Shown in pieces: positions 338-63,767 of a stretch of DNA of 64,000 nucleotides. This DNA is from a virus (lineage: Duplodnaviria > Caudoviricetes), in IMG/VR virus record IMGVR_UViG_3300031088_000782, positions 32,001 to 96,000 of that record. One strand, 5' to 3'. Position 1 is the stretch's first letter. Each line of letters begins with the position of its first letter. The notes beneath the pieces were generated by a model. It was not told the DNA's origin and did not search any database. It saw nothing but the letters and a program-made list of their open reading frames with translations. Position numbers and translations under genes: made by a program.

Positions 338-342
338 GATAT
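338..342 (+). promoter_or_regulatory. GATAT upstream motif (first of 14 positionally conserved copies; see findings)
   Basis: 51 nt before ATG 389; the same motif lies 41-55 nt before many other starts. Confidence 0.55.
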
Positions 343-388
343 TGTAACTATAAATAGCAATAACGATAAAAAGAATGGACTCCGAGAT

Positions 389-2260
389 ATGGGATTTTTC
401 AAGAAGAACAACAAGGCAGAACCGCCTAAAACAAGCGTTCCTAAAATAGAATATGCTGACCTTAAAACGTCTTTAGTTGAAGCTCTGAGTGTCGGCTCCA
501 AAGACTCTAAATTTCTTGACGTTTTGACAGAGGATGGAGATCAGATATTCATTTATGCTAACAGCGGAGAAATCAAATACGCTTATAGTAAGAATAACCC
601 TTTAAGATTTAGCGAAAGACTATTTTGGGTGTCCGAAGATTCTCTTTCTTTTGAGAAACGAGAAAAACTTTCTACTCTTGTCAATGATTTTAGTAATGTT
701 AATTTTTATGCTGAAATAATGAAAGAAATTCCTGAATCTAAAGATGTAGTAGATGGAATACTTAGGGATTACACGCTTTCTGTTATTCTTAATTCAAAAA
801 GAGCGAAAATCACAAAGATTTTTACCGAACTTTTATTCCATCCTGAAAATGCTATTGTTGAAAATATTAATTTCTTTGAAAAGTCTATTGATGAACTTAT
901 TGATGAAGTTGAGAAACTTGATAAGGATGAAAACAAATTTCTCCATGCTTTGAGTAAGAATAAAGATGAAAAAGTCTCTATCGCTTTACCAGAGGGTTTC
1001 AACCAGAAGCCAAATAATGATATCGAGTATCTTCTTTTCTCTGCGGCTGAAGCAGAAAGCACAATTGCAGAAGTTCGAGAAGCTTCAACAGGATTTGTGT
1101 TTGCAGAAGTTTTGAGTGTTTTGAATTCTCTTATTTATAACAAGGTTATTACTATTGACGAAATTGGAGATGACGATGATGCTTTGCCAACTTTTCCATT
1201 TGAAGAAACAGCTGAAAAAGAATCTATTGTAGTTTCACCAAAAGATGAAGAAACAGAATCTTCTAATGAAGAGAGAAAAGAAATCCCCATTGATGATTAT
1301 TCAACAGTCATTTCAAATGATTTTGATGTTTTCAAACAAGAACCAGAGAACAAAGATTTAGAATCCACAGAAAGCGATTTGATGGTAGAAAATGTTACTG
1401 AGGAGGTTGAGTCCGATAGTGATGATTCTGATACCCATGACAGCACTCTTCATGGCTCTCATCATATTCATCCAAGTTCTGGCATGTTTGAGGTTGAGGA
1501 AGATGATGAATTTGTTTTCGCTTACCCTCCTAAAGATTCTGCTGATGATTCTGTTGGCTCTGAGGATGATGGCGGATTCGATTTCGAGGTTGTTGAAGAT
1601 GCAGAATCAGCAGGAACTACTGGAGCTTTGGATGATGAAGATTTTGTAAAAGATTTTGAAAAAGTTTTGAAGGATAAAAAGATTTCCGAAGAAAACAGAA
1701 AAGAAGTTCGCTCTCTTGTGGAAAACAATGACAAACTTGAGATTGAATTGAAATCTGTGGAACAGGAAGTTGTTTCTGCGCAAGAAGAATACAATAAATC
1801 AGACAGTTCAGCAGAAAGTGATAGTGATTCTCATGATTCTTTATCTACTCTTTATGAAGTAGAATCCCAGAGACAAGAAATAAATACTGCTCGTAAGTCA
1901 GTTCTTGAGCGATTGTTTATTATTACTGATTCTCTTCCAAGTGACTATGTTCAGGAGATGTTGCATCGAATTACTTTGAAATTGGATGGAATTGAATCAG
2001 TAGTTAATGTTGCTTTCAATGTTTCAGAGCAAGAAGATGTATCAGAATCAGAAGTAACAATTGTTAATGTTACAGAAGAATTCGAACCTATTGAAGAAGC
2101 TGTTGGAATTGATGCAGAAGAGTTTAAAGAAAAAGTTGAAAAAGAATTTCATGATGTTCTTGATTTAACAACTGAAGTTGATTTCAGTGAAGAATCGACA
2201 CCTATATATTCAGAATTAATCAAAACGATGGGATTCAACCCTTCTAACAAGACAAAATAA
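389..2260 (+). CDS. Acidic 623-aa hypothetical protein, N-terminal DUF4388/PatA-like domain possible
   Basis: Long ORF. IFIYANSGEIKYAYS resembles DUF4388-type strands; Asp/Glu-rich middle and a coiled-coil segment follow. Confidence 0.45.
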   Translation: MGFFKKNNKAEPPKTSVPKIEYADLKTSLVEALSVGSKDSKFLDVLTEDGDQIFIYANSGEIKYAYSKNNPLRFSERLFWVSEDSLSFEKREKLSTLVNDFSNVNFYAEIMKEIPESKDVVDGILRDYTLSVILNSKRAKITKIFTELLFHPENAIVENINFFEKSIDELIDEVEKLDKDENKFLHALSKNKDEKVSIALPEGFNQKPNNDIEYLLFSAAEAESTIAEVREASTGFVFAEVLSVLNSLIYNKVITIDEIGDDDDALPTFPFEETAEKESIVVSPKDEETESSNEERKEIPIDDYSTVISNDFDVFKQEPENKDLESTESDLMVENVTEEVESDSDDSDTHDSTLHGSHHIHPSSGMFEVEEDDEFVFAYPPKDSADDSVGSEDDGGFDFEVVEDAESAGTTGALDDEDFVKDFEKVLKDKKISEENRKEVRSLVENNDKLEIELKSVEQEVVSAQEEYNKSDSSAESDSDSHDSLSTLYEVESQRQEINTARKSVLERLFIITDSLPSDYVQEMLHRITLKLDGIESVVNVAFNVSEQEDVSESEVTIVNVTEEFEPIEEAVGIDAEEFKEKVEKEFHDVLDLTTEVDFSEESTPIYSELIKTMGFNPSNKTK

Positions 2261-2277
2261 TGCTATATGAGATATTG

Positions 2278-2316
2278 ATATAGGCACAGCTGAAATGTTA
2301 GATGCTGTGTCTATAT
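2278..2316. terminator. 13-bp inverted repeat (one G-U pair), probable terminator or regulatory hairpin
   Basis: atataggcacagc (2278-2290) / gctgtgtctatat (2304-2316), directly after the 2260 stop. Confidence 0.6.
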
Positions 2317-2345
2317 TTCTTTAATCGAACATATAGCAAAAGAGT

Positions 2346-4781: not shown

Positions 4782-4842
4782 TTTCAGACCGTGATTGATA
4801 TTCTCAATAGTATATGTATGATAATTTGTATGGGAGCTTTAA

Positions 4843-6780
4843 ATGCCAATTCCTAAGAATGCTTCACCAGGAGGAAACTCTAACAGGGGTAACGATTCGA
4901 ACAGAGGTCCGGGTGGAAATCCTCCTCGAAATAACCCTAATCGTTCAAATAACCCTAATATTCCACGCAGACCGCCTGCTGGTGGTAATCAGTCACCTTC
5001 AGTGCCTCATTCCCCGCAAAGAGGGAATGGTAACGCAAGGCAAAATCCTGCAAGGTCAGGACAAAACCCAAATCAAGATCCACGTCAGGCAAGACGTCCA
5101 CAGCAGTTACCGCAGAATAATCCTCCGGTAAGAGGTCAAGGCCCAAGACAATCCACTGCTCAGGCTTCTCATTACGTAGATGACGAATTGGGTTTTGAGG
5201 AAAATCAATCAAATCAGGTTCCTTCCCAAGAAGGCAGAAGAAGACCTCCAAGCTCTCACGTTGAGCAGTATGACTATGATGAACGTTCTTTTGATAATAC
5301 ACCTAATCCCTCTCCAAGAGAAAATTATCAGCGTCCAAATCGATCTTACCCTCAAGACGATCAAGAGAGAGAAGTTCGTGAACCTTTTGTCAATGAATTT
5401 GATGAATATGAAGATGAAACATTCAGCCCTATTTCTATTGATGAACAGTTAAGAATAGAAGATGAAGAAGACAATCGTTCATCAAATAATTCTCGTAATC
5501 GTTCACGTAGAGATGAGGAAGTTTCTTATGAGCCTTCTCCCTTAGATGATTATGAAGATGACGAGGAAAAAGAAGTTTCGGTTCCCCAAAAAGCTCCTAA
5601 GTCAAAGCCTAAAAAAGTAAAGAAAAACCGTAAAGATAAAAAAGGGCAAGATGTTTTTATTGATGAGAAAAAAGGTGTTGTAAAACCTTTCGGTGGAAGA
5701 AAAATTAAAGAGAATGAATTTGATAAGAGAAAGAACATTCGTAAAAACGCAATCGTCATTCAATGGGTTGTTATCAGTCTTATCGTTATTCTTGTCGGAT
5801 TAGGTGTGAAAAATGCTGTTGTTCCGCCAAAAACTCTTGATGAACAAGAAGTAGCTGACATTGCTGCAGTTACAACTGGTGTGACAAATTATCCATTAGA
5901 AAAAGGAAAAGGTTTCGCAACTGATTTCATGAAGGCTTACCTTACTATTAACAATGATGAGGTCGCTTCAAAAGTGTTGGGATACTACTATTCTGGAAGC
6001 TTAACTGTTGAGGATGATAATAGTAACAAAGAGGCAACCAGTAATTACAAACAGACTATCCTTTATGGCCCAACTGTTTATGATTCTTTCGCTTTCAATG
6101 ACTACTCAGCTCGTTATACAATAGGATCTTTGGTCAAGCCAGGAGCAGTAGAGGGTAAAGCTTCAGGAGTAGATCCTCATTGGGTATTCTTTAATGTTAA
6201 TGTATATTACAATTCCGCAGCTGATTCATTTACTATTACTGATGATTCACCAACAGTTGTTCCTTCAGCTGAAGTAGGAAATATTGCGGACCTTCCTGAA
6301 CGACAAGTTTTGGGCACAGGCGAAGCAGATCAAGGTATTGGAGAATCTATCAAATCTGTTGTATTCGGATTCTTACAAGGCTATGCTGAATCTTCTCCTG
6401 CAGATCATTCAAGTCTTGATCAATACATTACTGACTCAAAAGACTCGGAACTAATAAAAGGATTAGACGGAGAATATGAATTCTCAGGAGAAATGAATGA
6501 CGCAGTTCAATTTGAAGCTTTCCCTGTTGATGAATCAGAAAGCCCAACTGAGATAAAAGCTCTTACGAAAGTAAGATGGGCCAACAAAGTTAAGGTTTCA
6601 GATCAAGAAACACGAGTTGATTATACCTCCACTTATGTTATGACTCTTCAAAAAGTTGGAGATAAATATTTGGTATCAAAATTCCAACCACAATATTACG
6701 CCTCTGAGGAAGCCGAGAAGCCTGTTGTTCCTGACTATGAAGAAGATCCAGCCACAGATACTTCTATCGAAGAAGAGTGA
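4843..6780 (+). CDS. TcpC-like (VirB8-like) conjugation protein with long disordered N-terminus
   Basis: About 300-aa P/N/R/Q then D/E low-complexity region, one TM (AIVIQWVVISLIVILVGLGV), then tandem TcpC-like domains (GFATDFMKAYLT; WVFFNVNVYY; VVFGFLQGYA; STYVMTLQKVGDKYLV). Confidence 0.7.
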   Translation: MPIPKNASPGGNSNRGNDSNRGPGGNPPRNNPNRSNNPNIPRRPPAGGNQSPSVPHSPQRGNGNARQNPARSGQNPNQDPRQARRPQQLPQNNPPVRGQGPRQSTAQASHYVDDELGFEENQSNQVPSQEGRRRPPSSHVEQYDYDERSFDNTPNPSPRENYQRPNRSYPQDDQEREVREPFVNEFDEYEDETFSPISIDEQLRIEDEEDNRSSNNSRNRSRRDEEVSYEPSPLDDYEDDEEKEVSVPQKAPKSKPKKVKKNRKDKKGQDVFIDEKKGVVKPFGGRKIKENEFDKRKNIRKNAIVIQWVVISLIVILVGLGVKNAVVPPKTLDEQEVADIAAVTTGVTNYPLEKGKGFATDFMKAYLTINNDEVASKVLGYYYSGSLTVEDDNSNKEATSNYKQTILYGPTVYDSFAFNDYSARYTIGSLVKPGAVEGKASGVDPHWVFFNVNVYYNSAADSFTITDDSPTVVPSAEVGNIADLPERQVLGTGEADQGIGESIKSVVFGFLQGYAESSPADHSSLDQYITDSKDSELIKGLDGEYEFSGEMNDAVQFEAFPVDESESPTEIKALTKVRWANKVKVSDQETRVDYTSTYVMTLQKVGDKYLVSKFQPQYYASEEAEKPVVPDYEEDPATDTSIEEE

Positions 6781-7444: not shown

Positions 7445-7536
7445 ATTTATATTAAAATTGTTTTTATGGGTGTGCGCTATAAGTTGATATTTAATTTGAG
7501 CAATAGTAGTTTTATTATATTTTTCAAGGAGATACA

Positions 7537-10688: not shown

Positions 10689-10753
10689 GATATATAGAAA
10701 AGAGATTACTTGATATTAGTATTAACGATCTTATAAATAGGGAAGTACAGACC

Positions 10754-19128: not shown

Positions 19129-19180
19129 TTTTGATTTTTGATATAATTAAAATTATTAAGCAAAAAGTCAAGGGGAAAAA

Positions 19181-20122: not shown

Positions 20123-20923
20123 TTGATTGTGGCAGATGAGAAAGAAACCGTTGAGAACAACAATAGCATAGATGACATTATTGATTCTGTAGTGGATGAA
20201 GTAGAAAATTCAGAAGATAATTCTAATTCTGTTATAAGTGTATCTGATGACAATAATGTTGATGATAACAATTCTGACGAACCAAAAACTACTGAAGAAG
20301 AAAATGATGAGTCAAAAAGCTTAGATGAAGAGACTATTGATGATCTTTCTGTTGATGATAATTTGTCAAAGGTTAATGAAGAGAATGAAAAAATTTTGGA
20401 AAGTGACACTACCGAATCTGAATTAGATAATTTTGACGAAAAATTTGCATCTGAAGTCAATAGAGATTATTTCGATGATGATGAAGAGTTTCTTGCTGGT
20501 GATGATGCAGAAATTTATGACGAAGATGCTCTTTCTATGTTTCAGCAATCAGATAAAGTTGTTTCAGTTGAGGTTTTGAATCTTTACACACCAGAGGGGA
20601 ATTTGAGAAATCGTTTGTCTTTAAGATCGGATCCCCCTATTCTTGAAATTAAAAGCAACGATGGTCAGACTGCTCAATTCATTTTGACAAAGAATTTTTC
20701 CTATGGACTGTTAGGAAAAATTGATGATGCATATAGTGCTTATTTCGGAATTCAGTCTAAGACTTCAAAGAATAAGAAAAAGATAAAAGACAAAGAAGAA
20801 GATGAAAAATTGACTTTTCAAGATAGAGTGAATAACGGTTTGAATTGGATGCAGGATAATAAAGGAAAAACCTTTATGGGTATTATTATTGTGTTTTTGG
20901 TTATTTTCGGACTGGTCTTCTGA
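20123..20923 (+). CDS. Acidic hypothetical protein with C-terminal TM anchor
   Basis: D/E/N-rich N-terminus; TFMGIIIVFLVIFGLVF at the end. Confidence 0.55.
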   Translation: MIVADEKETVENNNSIDDIIDSVVDEVENSEDNSNSVISVSDDNNVDDNNSDEPKTTEEENDESKSLDEETIDDLSVDDNLSKVNEENEKILESDTTESELDNFDEKFASEVNRDYFDDDEEFLAGDDAEIYDEDALSMFQQSDKVVSVEVLNLYTPEGNLRNRLSLRSDPPILEIKSNDGQTAQFILTKNFSYGLLGKIDDAYSAYFGIQSKTSKNKKKIKDKEEDEKLTFQDRVNNGLNWMQDNKGKTFMGIIIVFLVIFGLVF

Positions 20924-20953
20924 TATATATAATGGTATTTAAAATAGGCTTAA

Positions 20954-22853: not shown

Positions 22854-23837
22854 ATGTGCTTATTCTCGAAAGTGGAGTTAGCGGCATTTGTAAGTAAAAG
22901 TATAAGATTAGTGAGGAAAAATATGAGCAAAGACAAGCATTTGGACAAAGAAGAAGAGCTGCGTTTAGGGTTTCTGATTCAAGATATGCTAAAATCTCGG
23001 GAAATATTGAAAAATAACGAGTTTGAGTTGACAGAGAATGAAGTGTCCATTATTAAAGATAAAATCATCCTGGGAGAGAACGCAGTCGCAAAATTAGTTG
23101 AAGCTTATACAGGATTAGTTCATAATAAAGCAAGAATCTTCAAATCAAAGTATCCAGGTGCACCCGATCTTGATGACATTATTCAAGATGGTATGGCAGG
23201 ATTGCTGAATGGTATTTATCATTATGATCCAACACGCGGAAATAAAGTTTCTACAGTAGTTTCATATTGGATTTTTCAGTCCATTACCCGCTGGACAAAC
23301 AAAACCGGAAGATTAGTTAGACTTCCAGAAAATCGCGTCTCGGATTTTAGTAAAATTTCAGAAATGAGAGCCTCCCTTGACTTCAAAGGCTACACCCCCA
23401 AAGAAGCTGATGAAAAAATTATGAAAGATCTTAACCTTTCTGAAGAAGATCTTTATTACATTACGAATGCCGCGTCTACCCCAGCAAGTTTGAACAAAGT
23501 CGTTTCTTCCGATGAGTCTACAACAAAAGAGCTTATGGATATTGTGACAGAAGATCAAACCTCTGAATCATCCGAAGATCTTGTGATGAAGAATGCCGTT
23601 TATGACATTCTTTCTGACTGTTTCGAAGATCTGAGCGAACTTCAGGTTGATACTGTTGCGTCTACATTCATGTTAGACGGATTTGAAAGCGGACAAATGA
23701 ATGCCAAACAAGTTCGAGAAAAGCATGGTGTATCCCCCACAAAATTTAAAAAACAACTTGGGGAAGCATTGAAGATAATTAAGGTGAGACTTGATGAAAT
23801 TGGAATTAGTTATCAAGACTTTTTTGAGCACAGTTGA
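22854..23837 (+). CDS. Sigma-70 family RNA polymerase sigma factor
   Basis: Region 1.2 KHLDKEEELRLG; region 2 LVEAYTGLV...DDIIQDGMAGLLNGIYHYDPTRGNKVSTVVSYWIFQSITR; RLVRLP; SLNK; C-terminal HTH. Likely start ATG 22923. Confidence 0.9.
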   Translation: MCLFSKVELAAFVSKSIRLVRKNMSKDKHLDKEEELRLGFLIQDMLKSREILKNNEFELTENEVSIIKDKIILGENAVAKLVEAYTGLVHNKARIFKSKYPGAPDLDDIIQDGMAGLLNGIYHYDPTRGNKVSTVVSYWIFQSITRWTNKTGRLVRLPENRVSDFSKISEMRASLDFKGYTPKEADEKIMKDLNLSEEDLYYITNAASTPASLNKVVSSDESTTKELMDIVTEDQTSESSEDLVMKNAVYDILSDCFEDLSELQVDTVASTFMLDGFESGQMNAKQVREKHGVSPTKFKKQLGEALKIIKVRLDEIGISYQDFFEHS

Positions 23838-23922: not shown

Positions 23923-23953
23923 TTTTCGATTTGATTTTAGGTAGAATACGAAC

Positions 23954-24286
23954 ATGAGCATATTAAAAAAATACGAAACAGACAACAGCCTTTATTTATT
24001 CATAGCTTTTCACAATTCATATGATGATTCAGTACAGGCATCACAAGCAAAACTTGAAAAACTAATGAAAGAAATTTTCAAAAATGATGAAAGATACCAT
24101 TTGATGTCTTCAGGTGAAGAAATAGAAGATAATGAGATTATTTATCGTTTTCAAAAACCACTCATGGCTTCTGAAAGAGAAACACTTGCTTTTTTCACAA
24201 AACTGAAATTAGTTTTTCAAATGACTTCAGAAATGTCGCCTCATTTCACTCAAATGACCGCAGAAGACAAAGGAGCTAATAAATAA
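23954..24286 (+). CDS. Hypothetical protein
   Basis: 110-aa ORF translationally coupled to the next gene. Confidence 0.55.
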   Translation: MSILKKYETDNSLYLFIAFHNSYDDSVQASQAKLEKLMKEIFKNDERYHLMSSGEEIEDNEIIYRFQKPLMASERETLAFFTKLKLVFQMTSEMSPHFTQMTAEDKGANK

Positions 24287-25572
24287 TGAATGCATTATTT
24301 ACTAAAGATAATTTAAAGAAACAATCAGCTGATTTTAGAATTGGTGCTATTATTTCTGATGGTATGTGGTATTCGCTCCCTAAGTGGAGAAAATTAGCTA
24401 AAGTTTCAGAAGAAGAAATTAACAAATGGATTGATGAAAAACTTGATGAAGGAGTTTTGATACAATCTCCCACAGGTGCAAAATCATATCGTTTCCCTTT
24501 GACTGAAATTTACAAATGGTATGACGAACATGAACTTCCTTTGGGTGTTCAACTGATTGATTCTATCTTCCCTCCACGAATTTGGGACGAAATGACAGAG
24601 ACAGAAGGTTTTCTTTCTGCTCCATTGAGGAAAATAGGAATCGTTTCTTTTTCTTGCGGCTCTGATGTTGCATTAGAGATAACTCAGGCATTAAGAGGAA
24701 TAGCAAAGATTAGAGAAACTGATCCCGGAAGATATAAAGCATATTCTTTAAGCTCATCTTATGTAAAAGAAATTATTGAAGATATCTTAAAAAAGCATGA
24801 GCCAATTTCTGCGAATAGAAAAATTTATTCAAGAGCTGAGTCGAAGCGAAGAGAGATGGTTGATTTTACTCCTGATTTCGCTCATGGTTTAGTAATGTTC
24901 TACAAGCAATTTGCAAAAACTTTGGTAAAGAAGTTTATGGATACAATTCAGATTTTTGTTCCTGATCCTGAAGATCAAGAATCTCAAATTCTCATTTGGG
25001 TGATTGCATCTATTGAAAAATTTGATGAATCAGCATCGGTTCCTTTCAGTGGCTATCTCAACAGTGTTCTTAACAGGAGACCTTTTGATCTTCCATCAGA
25101 TCATCTTGGCAAAGAATTAAGCTCGTTCCAAAGAAATCGTTCTCGTAGCATTAATGCCATGAAGAAACGTTTTGGTGAGGATAAGAACTTCACTAATGTG
25201 GAGATAGCTTCAGAGATGGGTATGGCACAGATCAAATTTAACGATTTGGAAGAAAAGCACAGAGTGTGGACACGATCAAGAAATACAACAACTCTTACTT
25301 GGGATGAGAATGCTGATGAGAAATCTATCGAATCTAATCTTTCTGGAGATTTCAGCGGTTCGGGTGATTCTGATATATTACTTGCAAACAAACTTTCACA
25401 ATCGGTTATACAAACAGCTATCAACACAGGTCTTTATGAAGATGCTTTTGCAATTATCAGCCAAATAGATCTTTCTGAAATCAATGTCAGTAAAATACAG
25501 TCGATTTCCGAACCTTTCATTCAAGAACTTGGATTTGTGTTAGGAGTTGAAGGAGAACAGCAAAATGGCTAA
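24286..25572 (+). CDS. Divergent sigma-70-like protein with an extra N-terminal HTH
   Basis: N-terminal WYSLPKWRKLAKVSEEEINKWI...SYRF HTH; region-2-like DQESQILIWVIASIEKFDESASVPFSGYL; region-3-like FTNVEIASEMGM. Confidence 0.6.
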   Translation: MNALFTKDNLKKQSADFRIGAIISDGMWYSLPKWRKLAKVSEEEINKWIDEKLDEGVLIQSPTGAKSYRFPLTEIYKWYDEHELPLGVQLIDSIFPPRIWDEMTETEGFLSAPLRKIGIVSFSCGSDVALEITQALRGIAKIRETDPGRYKAYSLSSSYVKEIIEDILKKHEPISANRKIYSRAESKRREMVDFTPDFAHGLVMFYKQFAKTLVKKFMDTIQIFVPDPEDQESQILIWVIASIEKFDESASVPFSGYLNSVLNRRPFDLPSDHLGKELSSFQRNRSRSINAMKKRFGEDKNFTNVEIASEMGMAQIKFNDLEEKHRVWTRSRNTTTLTWDENADEKSIESNLSGDFSGSGDSDILLANKLSQSVIQTAINTGLYEDAFAIISQIDLSEINVSKIQSISEPFIQELGFVLGVEGEQQNG

Positions 25573-29372: not shown

Positions 29373-29460
29373 TATAAGTGAATTTTATAGGTTTTATCTG
29401 ATCTTTTCGGTGTTTGATATTAATATTTAAACACACAGTCCGTTTATTTGAGGAGTTTTA

Positions 29461-32274
29461 ATGTACAATATTTCTGAGTGGCCTGAATGGAATGCATGTC
29501 TCAATATTCTTTTGGATCCAGAGGTTTCCGAAATAGCAAGCAATGGGCCTAACAGTTTCTTCGTTGTGAAAAACGGAAAAAGAATAAAGTTAGACATTAA
29601 AGTTGCTTCCGAAGAGAAATATGCTGAAGGTGTTGAAAAAGGGCTTGTTCCCAAAGTAAAGACAACCAGGGACTTTGACATCAATGGTTATCTATTTGAA
29701 GGTAGGCTCACTTACAGCGCAGGTGGTACTGAAGTCATCGCTCGTTGTCACATTGGACTTTCTCCTTCAACTGTTACTCCACAAGTTTCCATTGCGAAAA
29801 AGAGTGCATCTTTACGTAATCTTGATTCAATTGCTTCACAAGGATCAATGAGTACAGAGATGATGAACTTTTTGAAAATGACTGTGGATGCGGGGTTGAC
29901 AACAGTGCTTTCAGGTGGAACCGGAGCCGGGAAAGAGGTACATAAAAATACTCTTATTCCAACCCCTTCAGGAATGCGAAAAGTTGATGATTTGAACATT
30001 GGTGATACAATTTTTGATGAAGTTGGTAAAAAAACCAAAATTGTTAACAAATATTCACCAAAAGATCCTAAACATTACAGATTGACATTCAATGATGGAA
30101 CAACTGTTGATGCGGGTATGGGGCATTTGTGGAAAGTATATGCACTGAACGAAAAAGTGAATTTCGGCCATAAATCTCATCCTATTCTTGATGAATCTCA
30201 AGTTGCTAATTTAAACAATATTCTTAATGAAGAAGAAGAATTTATTACTTTTTCTGAACTTAGAGAAAAAATTGGTGGAAATATCGACAAAACTGGATCT
30301 ATAAGAGAAACAGTCAAAGGTTTTGGCACAAAAGCAATTGATTTTTTTAATTTTGAGAAAGATTCAGTTGTTGAAAAAATCAAAAAATCAACAATCAATG
30401 AAAAAGATAAGAATGAAATCCTGAAAAGATTTAATACTGTTCAAGAGTCTTCTTTGTCTTTGAGAAAAGTGAAAGAACTTGTTGATAGCAGATATTTCGT
30501 TTCTAAGATTCTCCCCACTGAGCACAAAATTTCACAAGAAACAGTGTTTGTAAAGAAAGAAGTTGCTACACATCTTTTGAAAGATGACGAATTAAGAAAA
30601 GAAGCAAGAAAAAATCTTGACAAATCTTATCAAAGTGCTACTCGCCCTGTGAAAGTGATGACCACTCAAGAATTGGTTGATTATGGAGTAGTTAATAAAA
30701 AAGGGCGTTTAAATTTTGCTGTTGAAAGCTTACAGAATCCTGTTGAATACGATAAGCAAGATCTTCCTATTGATCCTTATACTCTAGGTGCCTGGTTAGG
30801 TGATGGATATTCAGCAACCGGAAGTATTTGCGGAATAGATAAAGAAGTTATTGAAAAAATTTATGAAAATGGGTTTAACTACAAAGAAAGACAGGATTTT
30901 AACGAAAGACAGAATATTCCTCTGAGTATTTGGACAGTTGAGGGTTTGAGTAAACTTCTCAGAGAAAACAATTTGAAGAACAATAAGCACATTCCAGAAA
31001 TTTACAAATATTCTTCTGTTAAACAAAGAATTCAATTACTTTCAGGATTGCTTGACACCGATGGGACTTTGGATTATCGTCGTGGAACAGTTCATGTTGG
31101 AATGACTGTTGAAAGCATTGTTAAAAACATGAGAGAAATAGTTTGCTCTCTCGGATGGCACGCTACTCCTGTTATTTCTCGTGAGAGAAGCTACAAAGCT
31201 GCTGACGGAACTAAAGTTGAGTGCAAGGATAGTTACGGCTTCAGTTTTGTTCCTGATGTTCAATTGTTTAATATTTCAAGAAAAGCGAAACTTCTGCATG
31301 AAAGATTAGGTAGAGATATTTCTCAGCAAGACAGACGAAACAGGCACTATATCAAAGATATTCAGTTGATTGAAGACGCTAAGGCCGAGGACTATTACTG
31401 CTTTGAAGTAGATTCAGCAACTCATATGTTCTTGTGCTCTGAGTCTTTCATTCCTACTCATAACACTACTATGCTTGAAGCCATGACTAAATTGTTCCCG
31501 AATGATTATAGAATTGCTGTTGCCGAGGATATTCCTGAACTTGTTCTTGTCCAGCCTAACGTCACTTATTGGGAGGCTGTTCCGTTTGTTCCTGGTATGG
31601 ATCCGAATGAAGTTGCCACTTTGCAGTGGGTTGTGAAGCAGTTCCAGCGTAATAGAAATGACAGAATCATCATTGGTGAGACTCGTGGCGCTGAGTTTTC
31701 TGAATTCTTAGTCGCTGCTAACTCTGGTAAAAACGGTTCTTTGACAACAATCCACGCTGATGATCCTGTATCATGCTTGAGAAAGATGACAAATTTTGCT
31801 ATTCAAGGTTTCGGAGGATTGAACATTCGTTCTGTTAACACTGAATTATCTACTGCTGTAAATATTATTGTACAGTTGAATAGGTTCCCTGACACTGGAA
31901 GGCACCGTGTGACTCAAATTCAAGAAGTTACACAAACTTTGAGTAATCAGGAGAATGCTCAAATTTCTACTCAACCTTTGTATTCTTATGATCCGTTGAG
32001 TGACACTTTCCAGAAAGAAGAAAATATGACTGATGGGCTTCGCAATCTTTGTGCTCAGAGGGGCGTTGACATTAGCGAATTCCTGAAGTCAAGATTGCAT
32101 GAGCCTACCCCTGGTCATAATAGCTCTGGAGGCGCTGGTGGGCGAAATAACCCGACTTCAGGCAATAGGACATTAGGTAGTCCATTATCTGATTCTGGAG
32201 CGTCTGAGGGGGCTTCTAAGCGCAGGAGACTTCCTACTGCAAATCCTTTCAGTAAAGGTGGTAGAAACATATGA
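29461..32274 (+). CDS. tadA: TadA/CpaF/VirB11-family secretion ATPase interrupted by an intein
   Basis: After removing the intein: SGGTGAGK|TTMLEAM, IAVAEDIPEL, DRIIIGETRGAE, GSLTTIHADD. Confidence 0.85.
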   Translation: MYNISEWPEWNACLNILLDPEVSEIASNGPNSFFVVKNGKRIKLDIKVASEEKYAEGVEKGLVPKVKTTRDFDINGYLFEGRLTYSAGGTEVIARCHIGLSPSTVTPQVSIAKKSASLRNLDSIASQGSMSTEMMNFLKMTVDAGLTTVLSGGTGAGKEVHKNTLIPTPSGMRKVDDLNIGDTIFDEVGKKTKIVNKYSPKDPKHYRLTFNDGTTVDAGMGHLWKVYALNEKVNFGHKSHPILDESQVANLNNILNEEEEFITFSELREKIGGNIDKTGSIRETVKGFGTKAIDFFNFEKDSVVEKIKKSTINEKDKNEILKRFNTVQESSLSLRKVKELVDSRYFVSKILPTEHKISQETVFVKKEVATHLLKDDELRKEARKNLDKSYQSATRPVKVMTTQELVDYGVVNKKGRLNFAVESLQNPVEYDKQDLPIDPYTLGAWLGDGYSATGSICGIDKEVIEKIYENGFNYKERQDFNERQNIPLSIWTVEGLSKLLRENNLKNNKHIPEIYKYSSVKQRIQLLSGLLDTDGTLDYRRGTVHVGMTVESIVKNMREIVCSLGWHATPVISRERSYKAADGTKVECKDSYGFSFVPDVQLFNISRKAKLLHERLGRDISQQDRRNRHYIKDIQLIEDAKAEDYYCFEVDSATHMFLCSESFIPTHNTTMLEAMTKLFPNDYRIAVAEDIPELVLVQPNVTYWEAVPFVPGMDPNEVATLQWVVKQFQRNRNDRIIIGETRGAEFSEFLVAANSGKNGSLTTIHADDPVSCLRKMTNFAIQGFGGLNIRSVNTELSTAVNIIVQLNRFPDTGRHRVTQIQEVTQTLSNQENAQISTQPLYSYDPLSDTFQKEENMTDGLRNLCAQRGVDISEFLKSRLHEPTPGHNSSGGAGGRNNPTSGNRTLGSPLSDSGASEGASKRRRLPTANPFSKGGRNI
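29935..31464 (+). mobile_element. 510-aa class 3 intein with LAGLIDADG homing endonuclease in the tadA P-loop
   Basis: Block A EVHKNTLIPTPSG; block B GHLW (W at 30130); LGAWLGDG and LLSGLLDTDG endonuclease motifs; block F YYCFEVDS (C at 31399); block G IPTHN followed by T+1. Confidence 0.9.
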
Positions 32275-33374
32275 AAGAACCTATAAGCGGAGCTAAACCA
32301 GTTCGAAAGAATACTAATGACAGAATCACTTTGGAAGCTTTAAAATATTACGTTCCTTTGTTTCATATAGGGGATGAGGCTTCTTTAAGAATTTTGGAAG
32401 ATGATGTTTCTACGGGGGAAAGAAACTTTTTGCAATCAAGAATCCTTTTGAAGCAAATGACTGTTGATAAGATAGCCTCTTTGTCTGGCCCTCTAATTAC
32501 TCGTGAGATAAATAAACTCATCAAAAATTCTCATTTGAATGGGCGTGATGATCTTTTTGACATTCTTTATTACGCTGGAATTAATGGAATGATTAAAGGT
32601 TTACGACACTTCGATGTGAATAAGATGAACAAATCTTCAACAAATTATCTTTTTCAATGGATTGTGACATATGCGAAAAAAGAGTTAGCGGTTATTGAAG
32701 CTCCTTTTGGTGTTGCGCCTTCTCGTTTTCAAAGATATAAAAAGATTTCTGCTGTAAGAAAGAAACTTTCTGAACAGTTAGGTCGTTATGCAAACAATGA
32801 AGAAGTTTTAGAATATTTTGTAAGTGGTAAAGCTGACATTAAAACTATGAGTGGTCGTTTGGATAAAAGTAACGAACCTTATGCTGTGAATAAGAACATG
32901 AGTTTGGGACTTATAGAAGAACAAGAAAATTTTGAAAAGAATTTGAATTATGTAAATCTTTTGGATCCACTGGAAGATTACAATACAGAAGTAACCTTGT
33001 CTCATAATGATGTTCCTCCTTTCAGTCAGACTTTATTTGGTATATTTGTAGAGGCTTATAATTTTACTGTTGAGGCTGTTTCTGTTCTTGTTTCTGAGTT
33101 GAAACATCCTGATGTTAAACCAGAATACGTAGCTTGTGCTTCTGATATGTCAACATCTGAGTATAAAAATCTTTCTTTGAAATGGAAAGAGCTTATGCGT
33201 GATGTAAATGGTCCTTTTTACTCTTTTTTGAGCGAAATGGAAGATAATAATTTTGATCAGTTCAATATTCCTGAAACGAAAAGAAATATTGAAAACTATG
33301 GGAAAAAAATCAAGTCTGAAAAATACTTGTCTCTTTTTGAAAATAAAAAGATAAAAAGGAAAGTTAAAATATGA
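32271..33374 (+). CDS. Divergent sigma-70-like protein
   Basis: DILYYAGINGMIKGLRHFD...STNYLFQWI (region 2); RKKLSEQLGRYANNEEV (region 3); NLLDPL. Confidence 0.65.
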   Translation: MKEPISGAKPVRKNTNDRITLEALKYYVPLFHIGDEASLRILEDDVSTGERNFLQSRILLKQMTVDKIASLSGPLITREINKLIKNSHLNGRDDLFDILYYAGINGMIKGLRHFDVNKMNKSSTNYLFQWIVTYAKKELAVIEAPFGVAPSRFQRYKKISAVRKKLSEQLGRYANNEEVLEYFVSGKADIKTMSGRLDKSNEPYAVNKNMSLGLIEEQENFEKNLNYVNLLDPLEDYNTEVTLSHNDVPPFSQTLFGIFVEAYNFTVEAVSVLVSELKHPDVKPEYVACASDMSTSEYKNLSLKWKELMRDVNGPFYSFLSEMEDNNFDQFNIPETKRNIENYGKKIKSEKYLSLFENKKIKRKVKI

Positions 33375-33754: not shown

Positions 33755-33838
33755 ATCGTGTTGCCGATATAAATAAGACAACATTTTTAAAATAAAAATA
33801 TAAAGATAAGGCGCAAGCCAAGAAAGTTAGGAGATACT

Positions 33839-35167: not shown

Positions 35168-35256
35168 TTTTCTGTAATTTGAATATAGTTATTTAGAGAG
35201 AATGAATGATATTAGTATTTAATAATAACTATGCTACAAATTAGGAAGAGAGTAAA

Positions 35257-35808: not shown

Positions 35809-35972
35809 AAATTTTTAAAAGAAATTGATGAAATATTGAATTCTATAATGAAGATGAAGTAATTTTCTCTGTATCTATTCGCATTGATTGTTATAGAAAA
35901 AGTTTTACGAAATAGACACTCAGGCGATATTTCATTGTGATAATTATGAGTGCAAACATATGGAGATTATAA

Positions 35973-43431: not shown

Positions 43432-43530
43432 AATTTTCATAACAATTTCAACATTAGAGAATTTTAAAAATATTGATTAATGCTGATATTGTTACTACAA
43501 GTTTTTATTACATGATGATAAGGAAACAAA

Positions 43531-45473: not shown

Positions 45474-45666
45474 TAAAAGTTTAAAATATTCCTTTGTTAT
45501 TTTTTTTAATCCATTTCAATACACTATATAAATTTTGTGTAACTGATATAATATTCCTTGTTTAATGGAATAGTCATATTAAGTTATGACAATTAGAACA
45601 GTTCTAACTTGATAGTTGATATTTCTATTGTAAAGTTTGAAGACTATTTAGTGTTAATGGAGAATT

Positions 45667-54318: not shown

Positions 54319-54428
54319 CTCCCCCTGACAAATAATTCAAATATATAAAAATAGACATTATTTAATAATTGCAGATATTCGTATATTAGAGAACTTTGAA
54401 AAATATTTAACAAAAGTAAGGAACTTCA

Positions 54429-55853: not shown

Positions 55854-55854
55854 T

Positions 55855-55917
55855 TTATTCTCCTCTTAAAAGTTGATATAATAAGATATAGAAACTTTTA
55901 AATTAAGGAGAAAATAA
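55855..55917 (+). promoter_or_regulatory. Hairpin sequestering the SD of the endonuclease gene, with a promoter element in its loop
   Basis: TTAAAAGTT (55866-74) pairs with AACTTTTAA (55893-901); TTCTCCT (55858-64) pairs with AGGAGAA (55906-12); TGATATAAT at 55874-82. Confidence 0.6.
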
Positions 55918-55919
55918 TT

Positions 55920-56891
55920 ATGGCTAAAGAAAAATATTATGGCTTTGACAAAAAATACACCGAAAAAGATGTTTGTGAAGAATATAAAAAAGGAAAATCT
56001 TTAAGTCAAATTTATAAAGACATAGGGGTAGCTCAAGTTACAACTAAAAAAATATTAAATAAACACAATATTCAAGAAAGGCAATTTCAAGTAGAATATA
56101 AAGAAGTAATTAAAGAGCTTGAAAAAGTAAGTATTGGGAAAAATGAGATATATGATTTTTATATTGTTCAAGGAAAATCTCAAAAGTTTCTGAAAGATAT
56201 GATTTTTGAGAAAACATCTATCAAAGTTGGAGACAAGGTTATTAATTCTCTTCTTAAATATTTCGAAATCAAAAAGAGTCCTGAACAAATAAAACGAGCA
56301 CAAGGGAATAAGTCTTTAAGCGAAAAAGCTTATAGTTATTCAATGCTTAAAAAAGCTGGATTTAATTCTACAAAAGAGCTTGCCGATTTTTATACAAATA
56401 ATTCAAATATGACTTATAGCGAAATTTGTGAATTATTGAATAATAAAATAGGAAAAGATGTGTTCACTCCACGTTGGCTTGGTAGGCATATGGCGAAAGA
56501 AATTGCAGAAGAAAATAAGGCTAAATCTTCTGTGTCTGAAAGGAGTTTAATGAAATATGTTGATTCAATTTATTCTGGTGAAATTTTGAAAAACAATTAT
56601 AACATTATCCCTCCAAAAGAATTAGACATTTATATTCCTGAATTTAACATTGCTATTGAATTTAATGGATTGTATTGGCATAGTGATAAGTTTATTGTTG
56701 CTAATCATGATATGACTTCTTATGACTATCATTATCAAAAATGGGAATTATGTAAGGATAAAGGAATTCAGCTTCTTTTCGTTTGGGAAGATGATTGGGA
56801 AGAGGATAAAGAAATTATAAAGAAAGCTCTTCTAGATGCTCTTAGCTTAGACAATAGAATTTTTAACCCTAAACTGTTTAGACTCGAATGA
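55920..56891 (+). CDS. Free-standing Vsr/PD-(D/E)xK-type (Hef-like) endonuclease with N-terminal HTH-like repeats
   Basis: SERSL...PKELDIYIPEFNIAIEFNGLYWHSD...YHYQKWELCKDKGIQLLFVWEDDW. Confidence 0.75.
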   Translation: MAKEKYYGFDKKYTEKDVCEEYKKGKSLSQIYKDIGVAQVTTKKILNKHNIQERQFQVEYKEVIKELEKVSIGKNEIYDFYIVQGKSQKFLKDMIFEKTSIKVGDKVINSLLKYFEIKKSPEQIKRAQGNKSLSEKAYSYSMLKKAGFNSTKELADFYTNNSNMTYSEICELLNNKIGKDVFTPRWLGRHMAKEIAEENKAKSSVSERSLMKYVDSIYSGEILKNNYNIIPPKELDIYIPEFNIAIEFNGLYWHSDKFIVANHDMTSYDYHYQKWELCKDKGIQLLFVWEDDWEEDKEIIKKALLDALSLDNRIFNPKLFRLE

Positions 56892-59239: not shown

Positions 59240-59247
59240 CATTATAG

Positions 59248-62521: not shown

Positions 62522-62550
62522 TTTATCAATTATCGTGAAAGTTATGAAAG

Positions 62551-62820
62551 GTGAATGTTATGGAAAATGATGCATTTGTGAAGACTCTTGTTTATGATTA
62601 TGTAGATAATGGGTATGGTGAAAAAGTTGATGATTCCACTATTCGTTCTTCAGTGAATGATAATGAGTTGTCTTTTGAACCACTTGCTGATGAGGATGGA
62701 AAGACTGTTGGTATTAATGTGTTTACTAATGGTGTTATGACTGTTTCGGCTAAATACACCGATAAAGATTTTGTAGAGACAGTAAATCTTTCAGTTCTTT
62801 CAGATTTGGGTGTTCTCTGA
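62551..62820 (+). CDS. Small acidic hypothetical protein
   Basis: 89-aa ORF, SD aaggtg, likely start ATG 62560. Confidence 0.5.
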   Translation: MNVMENDAFVKTLVYDYVDNGYGEKVDDSTIRSSVNDNELSFEPLADEDGKTVGINVFTNGVMTVSAKYTDKDFVETVNLSVLSDLGVL

Positions 62821-62845
62821 CATTCCTGATTGTGTTATATTTTTT

Positions 62846-62891
62846 ATTCCCTCCGTAGATATTATTTTTATATAGTATTTGCGGAGGGAAT
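62846..62891. promoter_or_regulatory. 16-bp hairpin containing the GATAT motif upstream of the IntC operon
   Basis: attccctccgtagata / tatttgcggagggaat; GATAT at 62858, 46 nt before ATG 62904. Confidence 0.55.
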
Positions 62892-62903
62892 TTTAGGTTT
62901 AGA

Positions 62904-63767
62904 ATGAAATATTTACCGTGGAATAGATTACAGCTTGATTCTCAGCTGAACAATGGGAATCGTGTGTCTAAGCAATCTGTAAGTTTCAGTGTTTATCGAA
63001 CTTTTAAAAAGAAAATGAGCTGGACTCCGATGATTATGAACAATGGTGCAGTTTTTTATGGAGAAGATGAGACACAGATTGATGATTTTCTTGAAACTAT
63101 CCTTTCTCAATCGAAAAAATTTGAAGAGTCTGTAACGATAGCCTTATATGACTTGCGAGAGCATCAGAATAACGCTTTTGAGGCTTTAGAATCGAAGTAT
63201 CGAGTATTTGAGTATCATCCTTATAAAAGCGATTTAAAAACGCTGATAAAGGATTTTGTAATTTTCAGAAATGAGATAAAAGAGAAGACTCAGGCGTTGG
63301 GATTGGTTGAATCTCCACATAGAAAAATTTTGATTCCTATATTTTTGTTGGATAATGATCAAGTTTCTGTTTTGAGTAACGACAAGTTAAGTAAAATTTT
63401 TCAACATTTTTTAACAGAATCTTCTTTTGAGCGAATTTTTCCTTTTGTTATTGCTCCTTTTGCTGAATCTTTTCCTGAAGATATTGTTAAAGCTTTTCAA
63501 TGGTCTGCTTTTTTGGGTTCAGATAACGCTTCTGTGTGCAGAAAAAAAATATATCCTGACAAAGAGGATAGTTTTTACAGTATTCGGCAAATAGTTATTG
63601 GAACTCTTTACACACGTTTGACTGCACGATTGACAGTTATTCATCCTTATAAGTTTACTCCGTCTGAATATTATTTCAAAAAGGAGCAGCAACTCAAAGA
63701 TGAGGACGAAAATTACAATAAGTTTCTTGATATGTTAGATGATGGAACAGTTAGAGATAGGGTTTGA
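62904..63767 (+). CDS. Hypothetical alpha/beta protein, possibly a degenerate FtsK-like P-loop domain
   Basis: GAVFYGED, IALYDL, ILIPIFLLDND, RIFPFVIA follow RecA-like strand order without intact Walker motifs. Confidence 0.35.
   Translation: MKYLPWNRLQLDSQLNNGNRVSKQSVSFSVYRTFKKKMSWTPMIMNNGAVFYGEDETQIDDFLETILSQSKKFEESVTIALYDLREHQNNAFEALESKYRVFEYHPYKSDLKTLIKDFVIFRNEIKEKTQALGLVESPHRKILIPIFLLDNDQVSVLSNDKLSKIFQHFLTESSFERIFPFVIAPFAESFPEDIVKAFQWSAFLGSDNASVCRKKIYPDKEDSFYSIRQIVIGTLYTRLTARLTVIHPYKFTPSEYYFKKEQQLKDEDENYNKFLDMLDDGTVRDRV

What the first reader, a model, noticed from the sequence alone, without database searches (positions are those of the whole stretch)
338..62904. Positionally conserved GATAT motif 41-55 nt upstream of 14 genes: candidate element-specific promoter class
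Seen (motif start to start codon, distance): 338-389 (51), 4797-4843 (46), 7486-7537 (51), 10712-10754 (42), 19140-19181 (41), 20922-20969 (47), 29416-29461 (45), 35208-35257 (49), 35926-35973 (47), 43485-43531 (46), 45618-45667 (49), 54374-54429 (55), 55875-55920 (45), 62858-62904 (46). Consensus is (T)GATATW. Housekeeping-like genes instead show TG-N-TA(T/G/A)AAT (11981, 23888, 34193, 50833, 52669, 53451, 56921). Inference: a transfer/pilus regulon read by an element-encoded sigma factor. Both split-intein halves belong to it, as trans-splicing would require. Alternative: a variant extended -10 (TG-A-TATnnn) read by host sigma; two copies are perfect TGATATAAT.
Basis: partly seen in the sequence, partly recalled or inferred. 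Interest (0 to 1): 0.8.

Follow-up and report, generated by a model that had tools for sequence, protein, structure and literature searches.

The report
GATAT promoter class of giant elements
The five-letter DNA word GATAT sits about 45 bases in front of roughly fifty genes of a 309-kb conjugation-type mobile element, and in front of the same genes in distant relatives, so it is almost certainly the core of a special promoter type, probably read by one of the element's own three sigma factors.

Summary
All 14 sites exist at the stated distances. Across the whole 309-kb element, GATAT is the top position-specific 5-mer. There are 42 intergenic sites 40-54 nt before start codons, against 7.1 +/- 2.6 in dinucleotide shuffles. 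The motif is strand-specific and intolerant of any single substitution. It stays upstream of orthologous genes in 17/19, 18/21 and 10/13 related lineages (30-60% GC) while the flanks diverge completely. The consensus is Y-GATAT-T, with no -35 box. Two of the 14 sites (19140, 55875; TGATATAAT) belong instead to the second conserved class, nGnTAnAAT.

I read GATAT as the -10-type core of an element-specific promoter class. My first choice of reader (about 45%) is the 428-aa one. Its fold is closest to SigD/FliA/WhiG, whose -10 core is CGATA(A/T). Its sigma-4 part is predicted to bind the small co-transcribed protein p110. No transcription start data exist, so reader and register remain inferred.

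The regulon is wider than transfer/pilus. It also includes RNR, GyrA, ligase and methylase genes.

Other first-stage notes flagged the motif in overlapping windows of this same genome, not on other DNA.

The parts
337..343 (+). Class B box AGATATT, 51 nt before the 623-aa gene at 389
   Evidence: Orthologues in G001 and G003 keep GATAT at 65 and 57 nt.
4796..4802 (+). Class B box TGATATT, 46 nt before the TcpC-like gene at 4843
   Evidence: No orthologue with an aligned N-terminus was found, so conservation could not be tested.
7485..7491 (+). Class B box TGATATT, 51 nt before the 461-aa gene at 7537
   Evidence: Conserved in 2 of 2 related elements.
10711..10717 (+). Class B box TGATATT, 42 nt before the TadE-like pilin gene at 10754
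   Evidence: Conserved in 3 of 4 lineages.
19139..19147 (+). TGATATAAT before the gene at 19181. This is a class A (extended -10) promoter that happens to contain GATAT.
   Evidence: Orthologues have TATAAT-like boxes, and GATAT in only 1 of 10 lineages.
20921..20927 (+). Class B box TGATATA before the 208-aa gene at 20969
   Evidence: Conserved in 18 of 21 lineages where about 1 is expected by chance.
29415..29421 (+). Class B box TGATATT, 45 nt before the TadA/T2SSE ATPase gene at 29461. The operon continues into the 367-aa sigma-like gene.
   Evidence: Conserved in 17 of 19 lineages of 30-60% GC where about 1 is expected.
35207..35213 (+). Class B box TGATATT, 49 nt before the GNAT-like gene at 35257
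   Evidence: Conserved in 10 of 13 lineages.
35925..35931 (+). Class B box CGATATT, 47 nt before the 1360-aa CD3337/EF1877-type mobilome membrane protein gene at 35973
   Evidence: Conserved in 3 of 3 lineages.
43484..43490 (+). Class B box TGATATT, 46 nt before the 461-aa gene at 43531
   Evidence: Conserved in 2 of 2 lineages.
45617..45623 (+). Class B box TGATATT, 49 nt before the 353-aa gene at 45667
   Evidence: Conserved in 1 of 1 lineage.
54373..54379 (+). Class B box AGATATT, 55 nt before the FtsK-like/HINT N-piece gene at 54429
   Evidence: Conserved in 1 of 2 lineages.
55874..55882 (+). TGATATAAT before the gene at 55920. Probably class A. It lies in the loop of a hairpin whose 3' arm covers the ribosome-binding site.
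   Evidence: The orthologue in G001 has no GATAT at a comparable distance.
62857..62863 (+). Class B box AGATATT, 46 nt before the gene at 62904 (followed at 63770 by the intein-piece ORF). It is embedded in a strong hairpin, 62847-62890.
   Evidence: (hairpin, -30 kcal/mol). Conserved in G001 at 42 nt.
33765..33771 (+). Additional class B box CGATATA, 73 nt before the HU gene at 33839.
   Evidence: GATAT lies 42-82 nt before HU orthologues in about 10 of 16 lineages.
2276..2282 (+). Candidate long-leader class B box TGATATA, 69 nt before the VirD4-like gene. Similar candidates start at 6874, 13623, 20036 and 48867.
   Evidence: The whole-element histogram has a secondary bump at 70-99 nt. Conservation was not tested.
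22923..23837 (+). Sigma-304: full-length RpoD/SigA-like sigma factor
   Evidence: NCBIfam RpoD/SigA family models at E 2.7e-28 and weaker. PDB SigA chains at E about 1e-16. 58 homologues, all on large syntenic contigs.
23940..23947 (+). Class A box GGTAGAAT, 6 nt before the p110 start codon. It implies a leaderless p110-sigma-428 operon.
   Evidence: Most of the 19 lineages carry a GGTAnAAT-like box a few nt before the ATG, and none has GATAT at 30-60 nt (0/19).
23954..24286 (+). p110: small conserved protein whose stop overlaps the sigma-428 start. Predicted partner of the sigma-4-like part of sigma-428.
   Evidence: Alignment A3. Complex model ipSAE 0.68 against a best control of 0.00, with the interface on sigma-428 residues 364-396. 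This is a model, not a measurement.
24286..25572 (+). Sigma-428: divergent sigma-70-family protein. It has an N-terminal winged helix (about residues 9-96), a PII-like domain (about 115-195) and a sigma2-3-4 part (195-420).
   Evidence: AlphaFold2 model, pLDDT 82.7. Top PDB and Swiss-Prot fold matches are sigma factors; the seven best Swiss-Prot matches are SigD, WhiG and FliA. At least 210 homologues.
32271..33374 (+). Sigma-367: third sigma-like protein, of group 1/2 type, second gene of the GATAT-driven tadA operon
   Evidence: hhalign against the sigma-304 family: probability 95.6%, E 1.2e-8, 268 columns. Fold matches are SigA/HrdB/SigB over the full length. At least 166 homologues.

Best explanation
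Y-GATAT-(T) is the -10-type core of a promoter class without a -35 box. The class belongs to a family of giant (about 100-730 kb) uncultivated conjugation-type elements. It heads about 50 transcription units in this element, 12 to 18 of them in the window. The implied 5' leaders are about 30-45 nt and include a ribosome-binding site.

The class is kept separate from two others. One is a class with nGnTAnAAT extended -10 boxes, which are often leaderless. The other is a block of canonical TTGAC-N17-TAnnnT promoters elsewhere in the element.

Inferred, not shown: host core RNA polymerase reads the box with one of the element's three own sigma proteins.
- My first choice, at about 45%, is the sigma-28-like 428-aa protein. 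In this reading G is at -12, the flipped A at -11 and -7 is free, as in the SigD/FliA core CGATA(A/T). Its co-translated partner p110 sits on sigma region 4, which would explain why no -35 box is needed.
- Second, at about 25%, is the 367-aa sigma encoded inside the GATAT-driven tadA operon, which would make the class self-amplifying.
- Third, at about 10%, is the RpoD-like sigma-304.

Such a layout would give a phage-like timed programme: host-type promoters first, then class A, then GATAT.
For: Shown:
- Positional enrichment over shuffled intergenic DNA: 42 sites against 7.1 +/- 2.6. GATAT is the top positional 5-mer, p = 8e-17.
- Strand specificity: 51 copies against 2 for the reverse complement.
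- No tolerance for any single substitution in GATAT.
- Two divergent gene pairs carry one box for each direction.
- Several boxes directly follow terminator-like hairpins.
- GATAT is again the top or second positional word in two whole related elements of 42% and 47% GC.
- It is retained 30-60 nt before orthologues of tadA (17/19 lineages), the 208-aa gene (18/21) and the GNAT gene (10/13). About 1 is expected by chance in each case. Flanks are unrelated and GC ranges from 30 to 60%. In GC-rich relatives the box is the only AT-rich island before the ribosome-binding site.
- No -35 signal appears at fixed or variable spacing.
- Class A promoters stay class A in relatives and never carry GATAT: 0/19 for p110 and 0/20 for the SMC-like gene.

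For an element-encoded reader:
- Three conserved sigma-family genes.
- For sigma-428, the seven best Swiss-Prot fold matches are SigD, WhiG and FliA. The only profile hit in the PDB is WhiG.
- Published sigma-28/SigD -10 elements are GCCGATAA and GCCGATAT. In them -12G is contacted, -11A is flipped, and -7 is neither conserved nor flipped (PMC12784957, PMC5200910, PMC2532724).
- The Tyr and Asp that align with sigma-28 Y76 and D87 are invariant or nearly so in the sigma-428 family.
- Its region-2 segment is almost invariant across lineages, like the box. Sigma-304 region 2.4 varies widely.
- The p110/sigma-428 model scores 0.68 against a best control of 0.00. That mark was reached by 58 of 80 solved complexes and 2 of 110 mismatched pairs. 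Runs agree in at least 38% of contacts and partner pLDDT is at least 66. The interface lies on residues 364-396.
- A distant clade keeps only the sigma-428 orthologue and uses a box identical at 5 of 6 positions, GYTATT.
Against: - No transcription start, expression or binding data exist, and no RNA run holds this DNA.
- The sigma-28 hallmarks TAAA at -35 and GC at -15/-14 are absent.
- The residue aligned with sigma-28 R80 is Val in sigma-428.
- Sigma-428 fails the Pfam and NCBIfam thresholds. Its fold Z-scores (9-10) are only middling for a helical protein.
- GATAT use tracks the presence of sigma-367: 3 of 3 whole elements with it use GATAT, and 0 of 2 without it do. Sigma-367 also sits in a GATAT operon. 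Its residue 133 is Val instead of Thr in exactly the lineages with variant boxes GATATG and GATAGT. That association may be shared ancestry only.
- 8 of 51 sites read GATATAAT, so the two classes overlap in sequence.
- The GYTATTG box of the distant clade could equally be a host TAnnnT -10.
- The register test against class A was inconclusive.
Confidence: 0.7

Rival explanations
1. This rival is nested inside the main reading. It gives the same promoter class a different reader: the group-1/2-like sigma-367 (or sigma-304) reads G(-14) A T(-12) A(-11) T T as a special extended -10. Because sigma-367 is encoded in the GATAT-driven tadA operon, the class would be a positive-feedback switch for transfer.
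For: - Sigma-367 lies in a class B operon in all lineages.
- The three whole elements that use GATAT all have sigma-367. The two that lack GATAT lack it.
- The Gln equivalent to sigma-70 Q437, which reads T at -12, is invariant.
- Thr133 is replaced by Val only in lineages with variant boxes.
- The distant-clade box GYTATT shares G, T, A, T, T in this register.
Against: - Group 1/2 sigmas with region 1.2 and region 4 normally need T at -7 and, without a good -10, a -35 box. Class B has neither.
- Sigma-304 region 2.4 varies among lineages that share an identical box.
- The residue-133 association may be a single event on the tree.
Confidence: 0.3
2. The host's own sigma reads the box and no element factor is needed. 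The host factor would be either the primary sigma, treating TGATAT as a weak extended -10, or a host SigD/FliA.
For: - The preceding base is T in about 57% of sites, which gives TG.
- Eight sites are perfect TGATATAAT.
- The box equals the SigD -10 core.
- Primary sigmas are conserved enough to explain conservation across hosts.
Against: - No T is conserved at -7, and there is no -35, no GC at -15/-14 and no TAAA.
- The elements keep a separate, well-formed nGnTAnAAT class and a canonical -35/-10 block, and orthologous promoters never swap class.
- Strict invariance of A at the second position has no role in TGnTATAAT.
- The family spans 30-60% GC and so presumably very different hosts, not all of which have sigma-28.
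Confidence: 0.15
3. GATAT is the binding site of a DNA-binding regulator (activator or repressor) next to some other, unrecognised promoter.
For: The element encodes HU-like and many unassigned proteins. Sigma-428 itself carries an extra winged helix.
Against: - A single asymmetric 5-7 bp word is too short for usual dimeric regulators.
- No second conserved element lies at any fixed distance.
- In GC-rich relatives no other AT-rich, -10-like patch lies between the box and the ribosome-binding site.
Confidence: 0.05
4. The word acts in RNA, for example as a processing or stability signal in 5' leaders of read-through transcripts.
For: It is strand-specific and at a fixed distance from start codons. 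Two copies lie in hairpins that involve the ribosome-binding site.
Against: - Both genes of divergent pairs carry it where no upstream transcript can exist.
- It often follows terminator hairpins.
- Pairing that occludes the ribosome-binding site is no commoner than in controls: 0.389 against 0.387.
Confidence: 0.03

Closest known systems
Sigma-28 / SigD / FliA / WhiG promoters (TAAA-N15-GCCGATAA or GCCGATAT)
   Same: The core CGATA(A/T) equals Y-GATAT. G at -12 and A at -11 are decisive and -7 is not conserved (PMC12784957, PMC5200910). The best fold matches of sigma-428 are SigD, WhiG and FliA.
   Different: There is no TAAA -35 box and no GC at -15/-14. Sigma-428 has a 190-residue N-terminal extension, fails the family's sequence models, and has Val where sigma-28 has R80. 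The regulon is that of a mobile element, not a flagellar one.
Bacillus phage SPO1 late promoters, CGTTAGA-N17-19-GATATT, read by gp34 with gp33
   Same: The -10 hexamer GATATT is identical (PMC3601020). A sigma gene is paired with a small co-transcribed protein, inside a multi-sigma programme on a large mobile genome.
   Different: There is no CGTTAGA or any other -35 box. Sigma-428 has no relative detectable by tblastn in 50,697 phage records. The resemblance is in sequence and layout only.
Phage T4 late promoters (TATAAATA, -10 only) with gp55, gp33 and the sliding clamp; and T4 AsiA bound to sigma-70 region 4
   Same: It works in a similar way. A short -10-only element is used, and -35 recognition is made unnecessary by a small protein acting at or in place of sigma region 4. 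This part is from my own knowledge.
   Different: The box differs, no homology was found, and there is no evidence for clamp dependence.
Extended -10 promoters of primary sigma factors (TGnTATAAT)
   Same: There is a T/G start, TAT follows, no -35 is needed, and the position before the gene is similar. This element's own class A is of this type.
   Different: Class B has an invariant A after the G and no conserved AAT or T at -7.

Membership tests
Sigma-28/SigD-type promoter | -10 core CGATA(A/T), with G at -12 and A at -11 | tested here: met
   The cross-lineage matrix gives Y (C 19, T 24 of 46), then invariant GATAT. The literature register is given in PMC12784957.
Sigma-28/SigD-type promoter | -35 box TAAA about 15 nt upstream | tested here: not met
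   No position upstream of the box exceeds 0.15 bits. The over-represented upstream words are only AT-rich ones of the kind expected in intergenic DNA.
Sigma-28/SigD-type promoter | Extended -10 GC at -15/-14 | tested here: not met
   The second and third bases before the G are mixed: C17 G13 T12 A4, and T19 G13 A12 C2.
Sigma-28/SigD-type promoter | Read by a FliA-family sigma | tested here: inconclusive
   For sigma-428 the seven best Swiss-Prot fold matches are SigD, WhiG and FliA (E 8e-4 to 8e-3) and the only PDB profile hit is WhiG (E 0.32). No FliA sequence model reaches threshold. Nothing links the protein to the box experimentally.
SPO1 late promoter (gp33/gp34) | -10 hexamer GATATT | tested here: met
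   The sixth base is T in 78% of cross-lineage sites. The consensus is quoted in PMC3601020.
SPO1 late promoter (gp33/gp34) | -35 box CGTTAGA at N17-19 | tested here: not met
SPO1 late promoter (gp33/gp34) | Homologues of gp34 and gp33 | tested here: inconclusive
   tblastn of sigma-428 against the phage records found only two weak, unrelated hits (E 0.4). PHROGs gave nothing for p110 or sigma-428. Remote homology is not excluded.
Extended -10 primary-sigma promoter | TG at -15/-14 plus TATAAT with conserved T at -7 | tested here: not met
   G is invariant and T precedes it in 57 of 97 sites. However, the position that would be -7 shows no preference (A22 C4 G7 T21). Only 8 of 51 sites read GATATAAT.
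Sigma-70 family (for the 428-aa protein) | Sigma2-sigma3-sigma4 fold and the region 2.2-2.3 sequence pattern | tested here: met
   The model has pLDDT 82.7. Nearly all top fold hits are sigma factors, for example sigma-S at Z 9.7, rmsd 3.7 A over 149 residues, and sigma-28 at Z 9.3, rmsd 3.7 A over 133 residues. The sequence models are sub-threshold (PF04542 E 0.03).
Sigma-70 family (for the 367-aa protein) | Profile homology over regions 1.2-4 | tested here: met
   hhalign against the sigma-304 family: probability 95.6%, E 1.2e-8, 268 columns. Fold matches SigA/HrdB/SigB at E 6e-5 and weaker.

The most novel reading that the evidence does not exclude
A family of giant conjugation-type elements runs a phage-like three-sigma programme. 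Its main promoter class, Y-GATAT-T without a -35 box, would be read by a so far undescribed sigma-28-derived factor that carries winged-helix and PII-like domains. A small partner protein would occupy that factor's region 4. That would be a self-encoded counterpart of sigma appropriation, used for conjugative transfer rather than for phage late genes.
Probability: 0.3. Interest if true: 0.75.

Novelty: new variant of a known kind. Interest (0 to 1): 0.6.

Why it matters
Conjugative elements are usually thought to rely on host sigma factors plus repressors or activators. Multi-sigma timed programmes are a hallmark of large phages.

Here one short box, conserved from 30 to 60% GC, organises about fifty transcription units in a family of huge uncultivated elements. 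These elements carry three sigma genes of their own.

The box gives three things:
- a ready marker for annotating operons in these elements;
- a simple, directly testable pairing problem of three sigmas against three promoter classes;
- two undescribed sigma subfamilies, with at least 210 and 166 members in metagenomes, one of them with a predicted region-4 partner.

If the pairing holds, it offers a compact set of sigma/promoter pairs that work independently of host promoters. It would also be a case of -35-independent initiation by a group-3-like sigma.

Tried and rejected
- **Expression data:** no RNA holder was listed for this DNA. The best DNA holder is a phyllosphere metagenome that may be the source sample. 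I therefore did not lay any reads.
- **Single-protein scans of viral contigs:** none found. Relatives were reached through homologue searches and alignments instead.
- **Other collections:** megablast against plasmids found no match. The GTDB genome scan found no relative, so the host stays unknown. Cluster look-up gave no names. A literature search for such elements found nothing relevant.
- **Search for a -35 box:** position matrices and k-mer enrichment returned only general AT-richness.
- **Register test:** I compared box-to-start distances of classes A and B. Medians differed by +4.5, 0 and -2 nt in three elements, which is inconclusive.
- **Translational gating:** I asked whether class B promoters generally sit in hairpins that occlude the ribosome-binding site, as at T4 late genes. 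Rejected as a general feature: 0.389 against 0.387 in controls. Two individual cases stand.
- **A fourth promoter class:** no clear word emerged among the remaining intergenic regions.
- **Sigma region-4 hits at 151-162 kb of the element:** these are helix-turn-helix parts of homing-endonuclease-like proteins, not sigmas.
- **hhalign of sigma-428:** comparisons against the other two sigma families were too weak to use. Against sigma-304, E was 0.05, though in the right register. Against sigma-367, the alignment was out of register.
- **Covariation between box variants and sigma residues:** only one or two independent events are available.

Full report
**Setting.** The window is bases 32,001-96,000 of a 309,534-bp IMG/VR record of 35% GC. 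Nearly all its genes lie on the plus strand. They encode conjugation-type functions. These include a VirD4-like coupling protein, a TcpC-like protein, a VirB6/TrbL-like protein, a lysozyme, a TadE-like pilin, a TadA/T2SSE ATPase and CD3337/EF1877-type membrane proteins. There are also PhoH, an SMC-like ATPase, HU, SSB and sigma-like proteins.

**The observation.** All 14 GATAT copies and their distances are as stated, and the seven TGnTAnAAT boxes are real.
- GATAT is not over-represented in the window overall. Its placement is what stands out.
- In the whole element, 51-52 copies start 40-54 nt before a start codon, against about 1-8 per 5-nt bin elsewhere. It is the most position-specific of all 5-mers (p = 8e-17).
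- Against dinucleotide-shuffled intergenic DNA the count is 42, against 7.1 +/- 2.6 (maximum 16 in 1000 shuffles).
- The reverse complement occurs twice in the same positional window.
- Any single change within GATAT abolishes the enrichment. The sixth base is T or A and the preceding base is not G.
- No other position carries information, and in particular there is no -35 box.

**Conservation.** The RpoD-like sigma of the window has 58 homologues, all on large metagenomic contigs with the same gene order. Using these and an alignment of the neighbouring 428-aa protein, I collected 52 related loci falling into 24 lineages. I also fetched four whole related elements.
- GATAT lies 30-60 nt before the orthologues of tadA in 17/19 lineages, the 208-aa gene in 18/21 and the GNAT gene in 10/13. 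About one per gene is expected by chance. The surrounding sequence is unrelated and GC runs from 30 to 60%.
- In GC-rich relatives the box is a lone AT island just upstream of the ribosome-binding site.
- Pooled over lineages the consensus is B-Y-GATAT-T.
- In two whole relatives (42% and 47% GC), GATAT or GATATT is again the first or second positional word.
- One lineage uses GATAGT and one clade uses GATATG.
- Of the 14 sites, 12 behave as this class. The two perfect TGATATAAT copies (19140, 55875) do not. Orthologues of the gene at 19181 carry ordinary TATAAT-like boxes.

**A second and a third class.**
- nGnTAnAAT boxes show a similar positional peak. In front of p110 and the SMC-like gene this type recurs, sometimes degenerate, in most lineages, and GATAT is never found there (0/19 and 0/20). 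Often the box ends 6-9 nt before the ATG, which implies leaderless mRNAs.
- Canonical TTGAY-N17-20-TAnnnT pairs cluster in the array of small genes at about 259-305 kb.
- Orthologous promoters do not change class, so the classes are functionally distinct.

**Why a promoter.** Five points favour a -10-type element over an operator or an RNA signal:
- the box is asymmetric and strand-specific;
- it lies at a leader-length distance from start codons;
- it often follows terminator hairpins;
- it is present for both genes of divergent pairs;
- it is the only meltable patch in GC-rich relatives.

**Who reads it.** The family encodes three sigma-like proteins.
- *Sigma-304* is a full-length RpoD-like factor.
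- *Sigma-367* is the second gene of the GATAT-driven tadA operon. It is homologous to sigma-304 over 268 columns (E 1.2e-8) and folds like SigA/HrdB.
- *Sigma-428* escapes sequence models. Its model (pLDDT 82.7) matches sigma factors almost exclusively. Its seven best Swiss-Prot matches are SigD, WhiG and FliA.

The published sigma-28/SigD -10 element is GCCGATAA or GCCGATAT. In it, G at -12 is contacted, A at -11 is flipped, and -7 is neither conserved nor flipped. That matches the information profile of Y-GATAT, except that the sixth base, which would be -7, is still T in about 78% of cross-lineage sites.

p110, whose gene overlaps the sigma-428 start, is predicted to bind sigma-428 residues 364-396, its region-4-like part. 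The score is 0.68 against a best control of 0.00. That mark was reached by 58 of 80 solved complexes and 2 of 110 mismatched pairs. Runs agree in at least 38% of contacts, and partner pLDDT is at least 66. This supports binding but does not show it. Such a partner could explain why no -35 box is needed.

Against a simple assignment:
- the TAAA and GC parts of sigma-28 promoters are missing;
- the R80 equivalent is Val;
- the two distant elements that lack GATAT lack sigma-367 but keep sigma-428. They do use a box identical at 5 of 6 positions, GYTATT.

My odds are sigma-428 about 45%, sigma-367 about 25%, sigma-304 about 10%, a host sigma about 15% and other explanations about 5%.

**Scope of the regulon.** In the window the class heads most transfer and pilus operons. 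Elsewhere it also heads genes for ribonucleotide reductase small subunit, GyrA, NAD-ligase, an Eco57I-type methylase, a Mom-like protein, VKOR, a thioredoxin-like protein and TadC. In the window it also heads HU. 'Transfer/pilus regulon' is therefore too narrow.

**Comparison and verdict.**
- By sequence, the nearest known elements are the SigD -10 core and the SPO1 late -10 GATATT.
- By logic, the nearest are -10-only late promoters of large phages.
- Membership in any of these families fails on the -35 element.

This is a real, strongly conserved, element-specific promoter class. It comes with two undescribed sigma subfamilies, so it is a new variant of a known kind.

Noticed in passing
window 22889-22900 and the same place in L009-L018, L083-L101: A conserved GTAAGTA(G/A) word lies about 20-30 nt before the start codon of the RpoD-like sigma gene in nearly all lineages, whatever their GC content. 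In five lineages a GATATT box lies 70-82 nt upstream of that gene. This may be a conserved leader element controlling sigma-304.
   Followed up: no
window 23940-23953; L009-L016 upstream of the p110 and SMC-like genes: Class A boxes (GGTAnAAT) end 6-9 nt before the ATG of p110 and of the SMC-like gene in many lineages. This implies leaderless mRNAs for the sigma-428 operon.
   Followed up: partly
window 23954-24286 with 24286-25572: The 110-aa protein is predicted to bind the region-4-like helices (residues 364-396) of the 428-aa sigma-like protein. The score is 0.68 against a best control of 0.00. It could be an anti-sigma, or a co-factor that frees the sigma from -35 recognition.
   Followed up: partly
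window 24286-24870 (residues 1-195 of the 428-aa protein): The sigma-like protein carries an N-terminal winged helix (fold matches to small DNA-binding proteins, Z about 8.6) and a PII/GlnK-like ferredoxin-type domain (Z about 8.7). Such a combination may sense a small molecule.
   Followed up: no
G004 and G005 (IMG/VR records of 175 and 198 kb, 60% GC; loci L043-L061): A distant clade keeps a sigma-428 orthologue (35-39% identity), possibly with a very diverged sigma-304-like ORF beside it (E 0.009). It has no sigma-367 and no tadA. Its intergenic regions carry lone GYTATTG islands 26-89 nt before about 25 genes each, instead of GATATT.
   Followed up: partly
L016, L100-L108 (p110 and SMC-like promoters): In the clade that uses GATATG, the class A box also differs: GGTAnnGTAG instead of GGTAnAAT. 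Sigma-304 region 2.4 reads WIRQSIVRE there. Both promoter classes seem to have shifted together in this clade.
   Followed up: no
window 62847-62890 and 55855-55922: Two boxes lie inside strong hairpins (-30 and -18 kcal/mol) whose 3' arm covers the ribosome-binding site. Read-through transcripts would then be translationally closed, while transcripts started at the box would be open. This is not a general feature of the class.
   Followed up: partly
window 29461-32274 versus L010, L014-L016: The TadA/T2SSE gene is 937 aa here and 793 aa in L011 (the latter with LAGLIDADG/Hom_end hits), but 402-420 aa in most relatives. The intein insertion is therefore lineage-specific.
   Followed up: no
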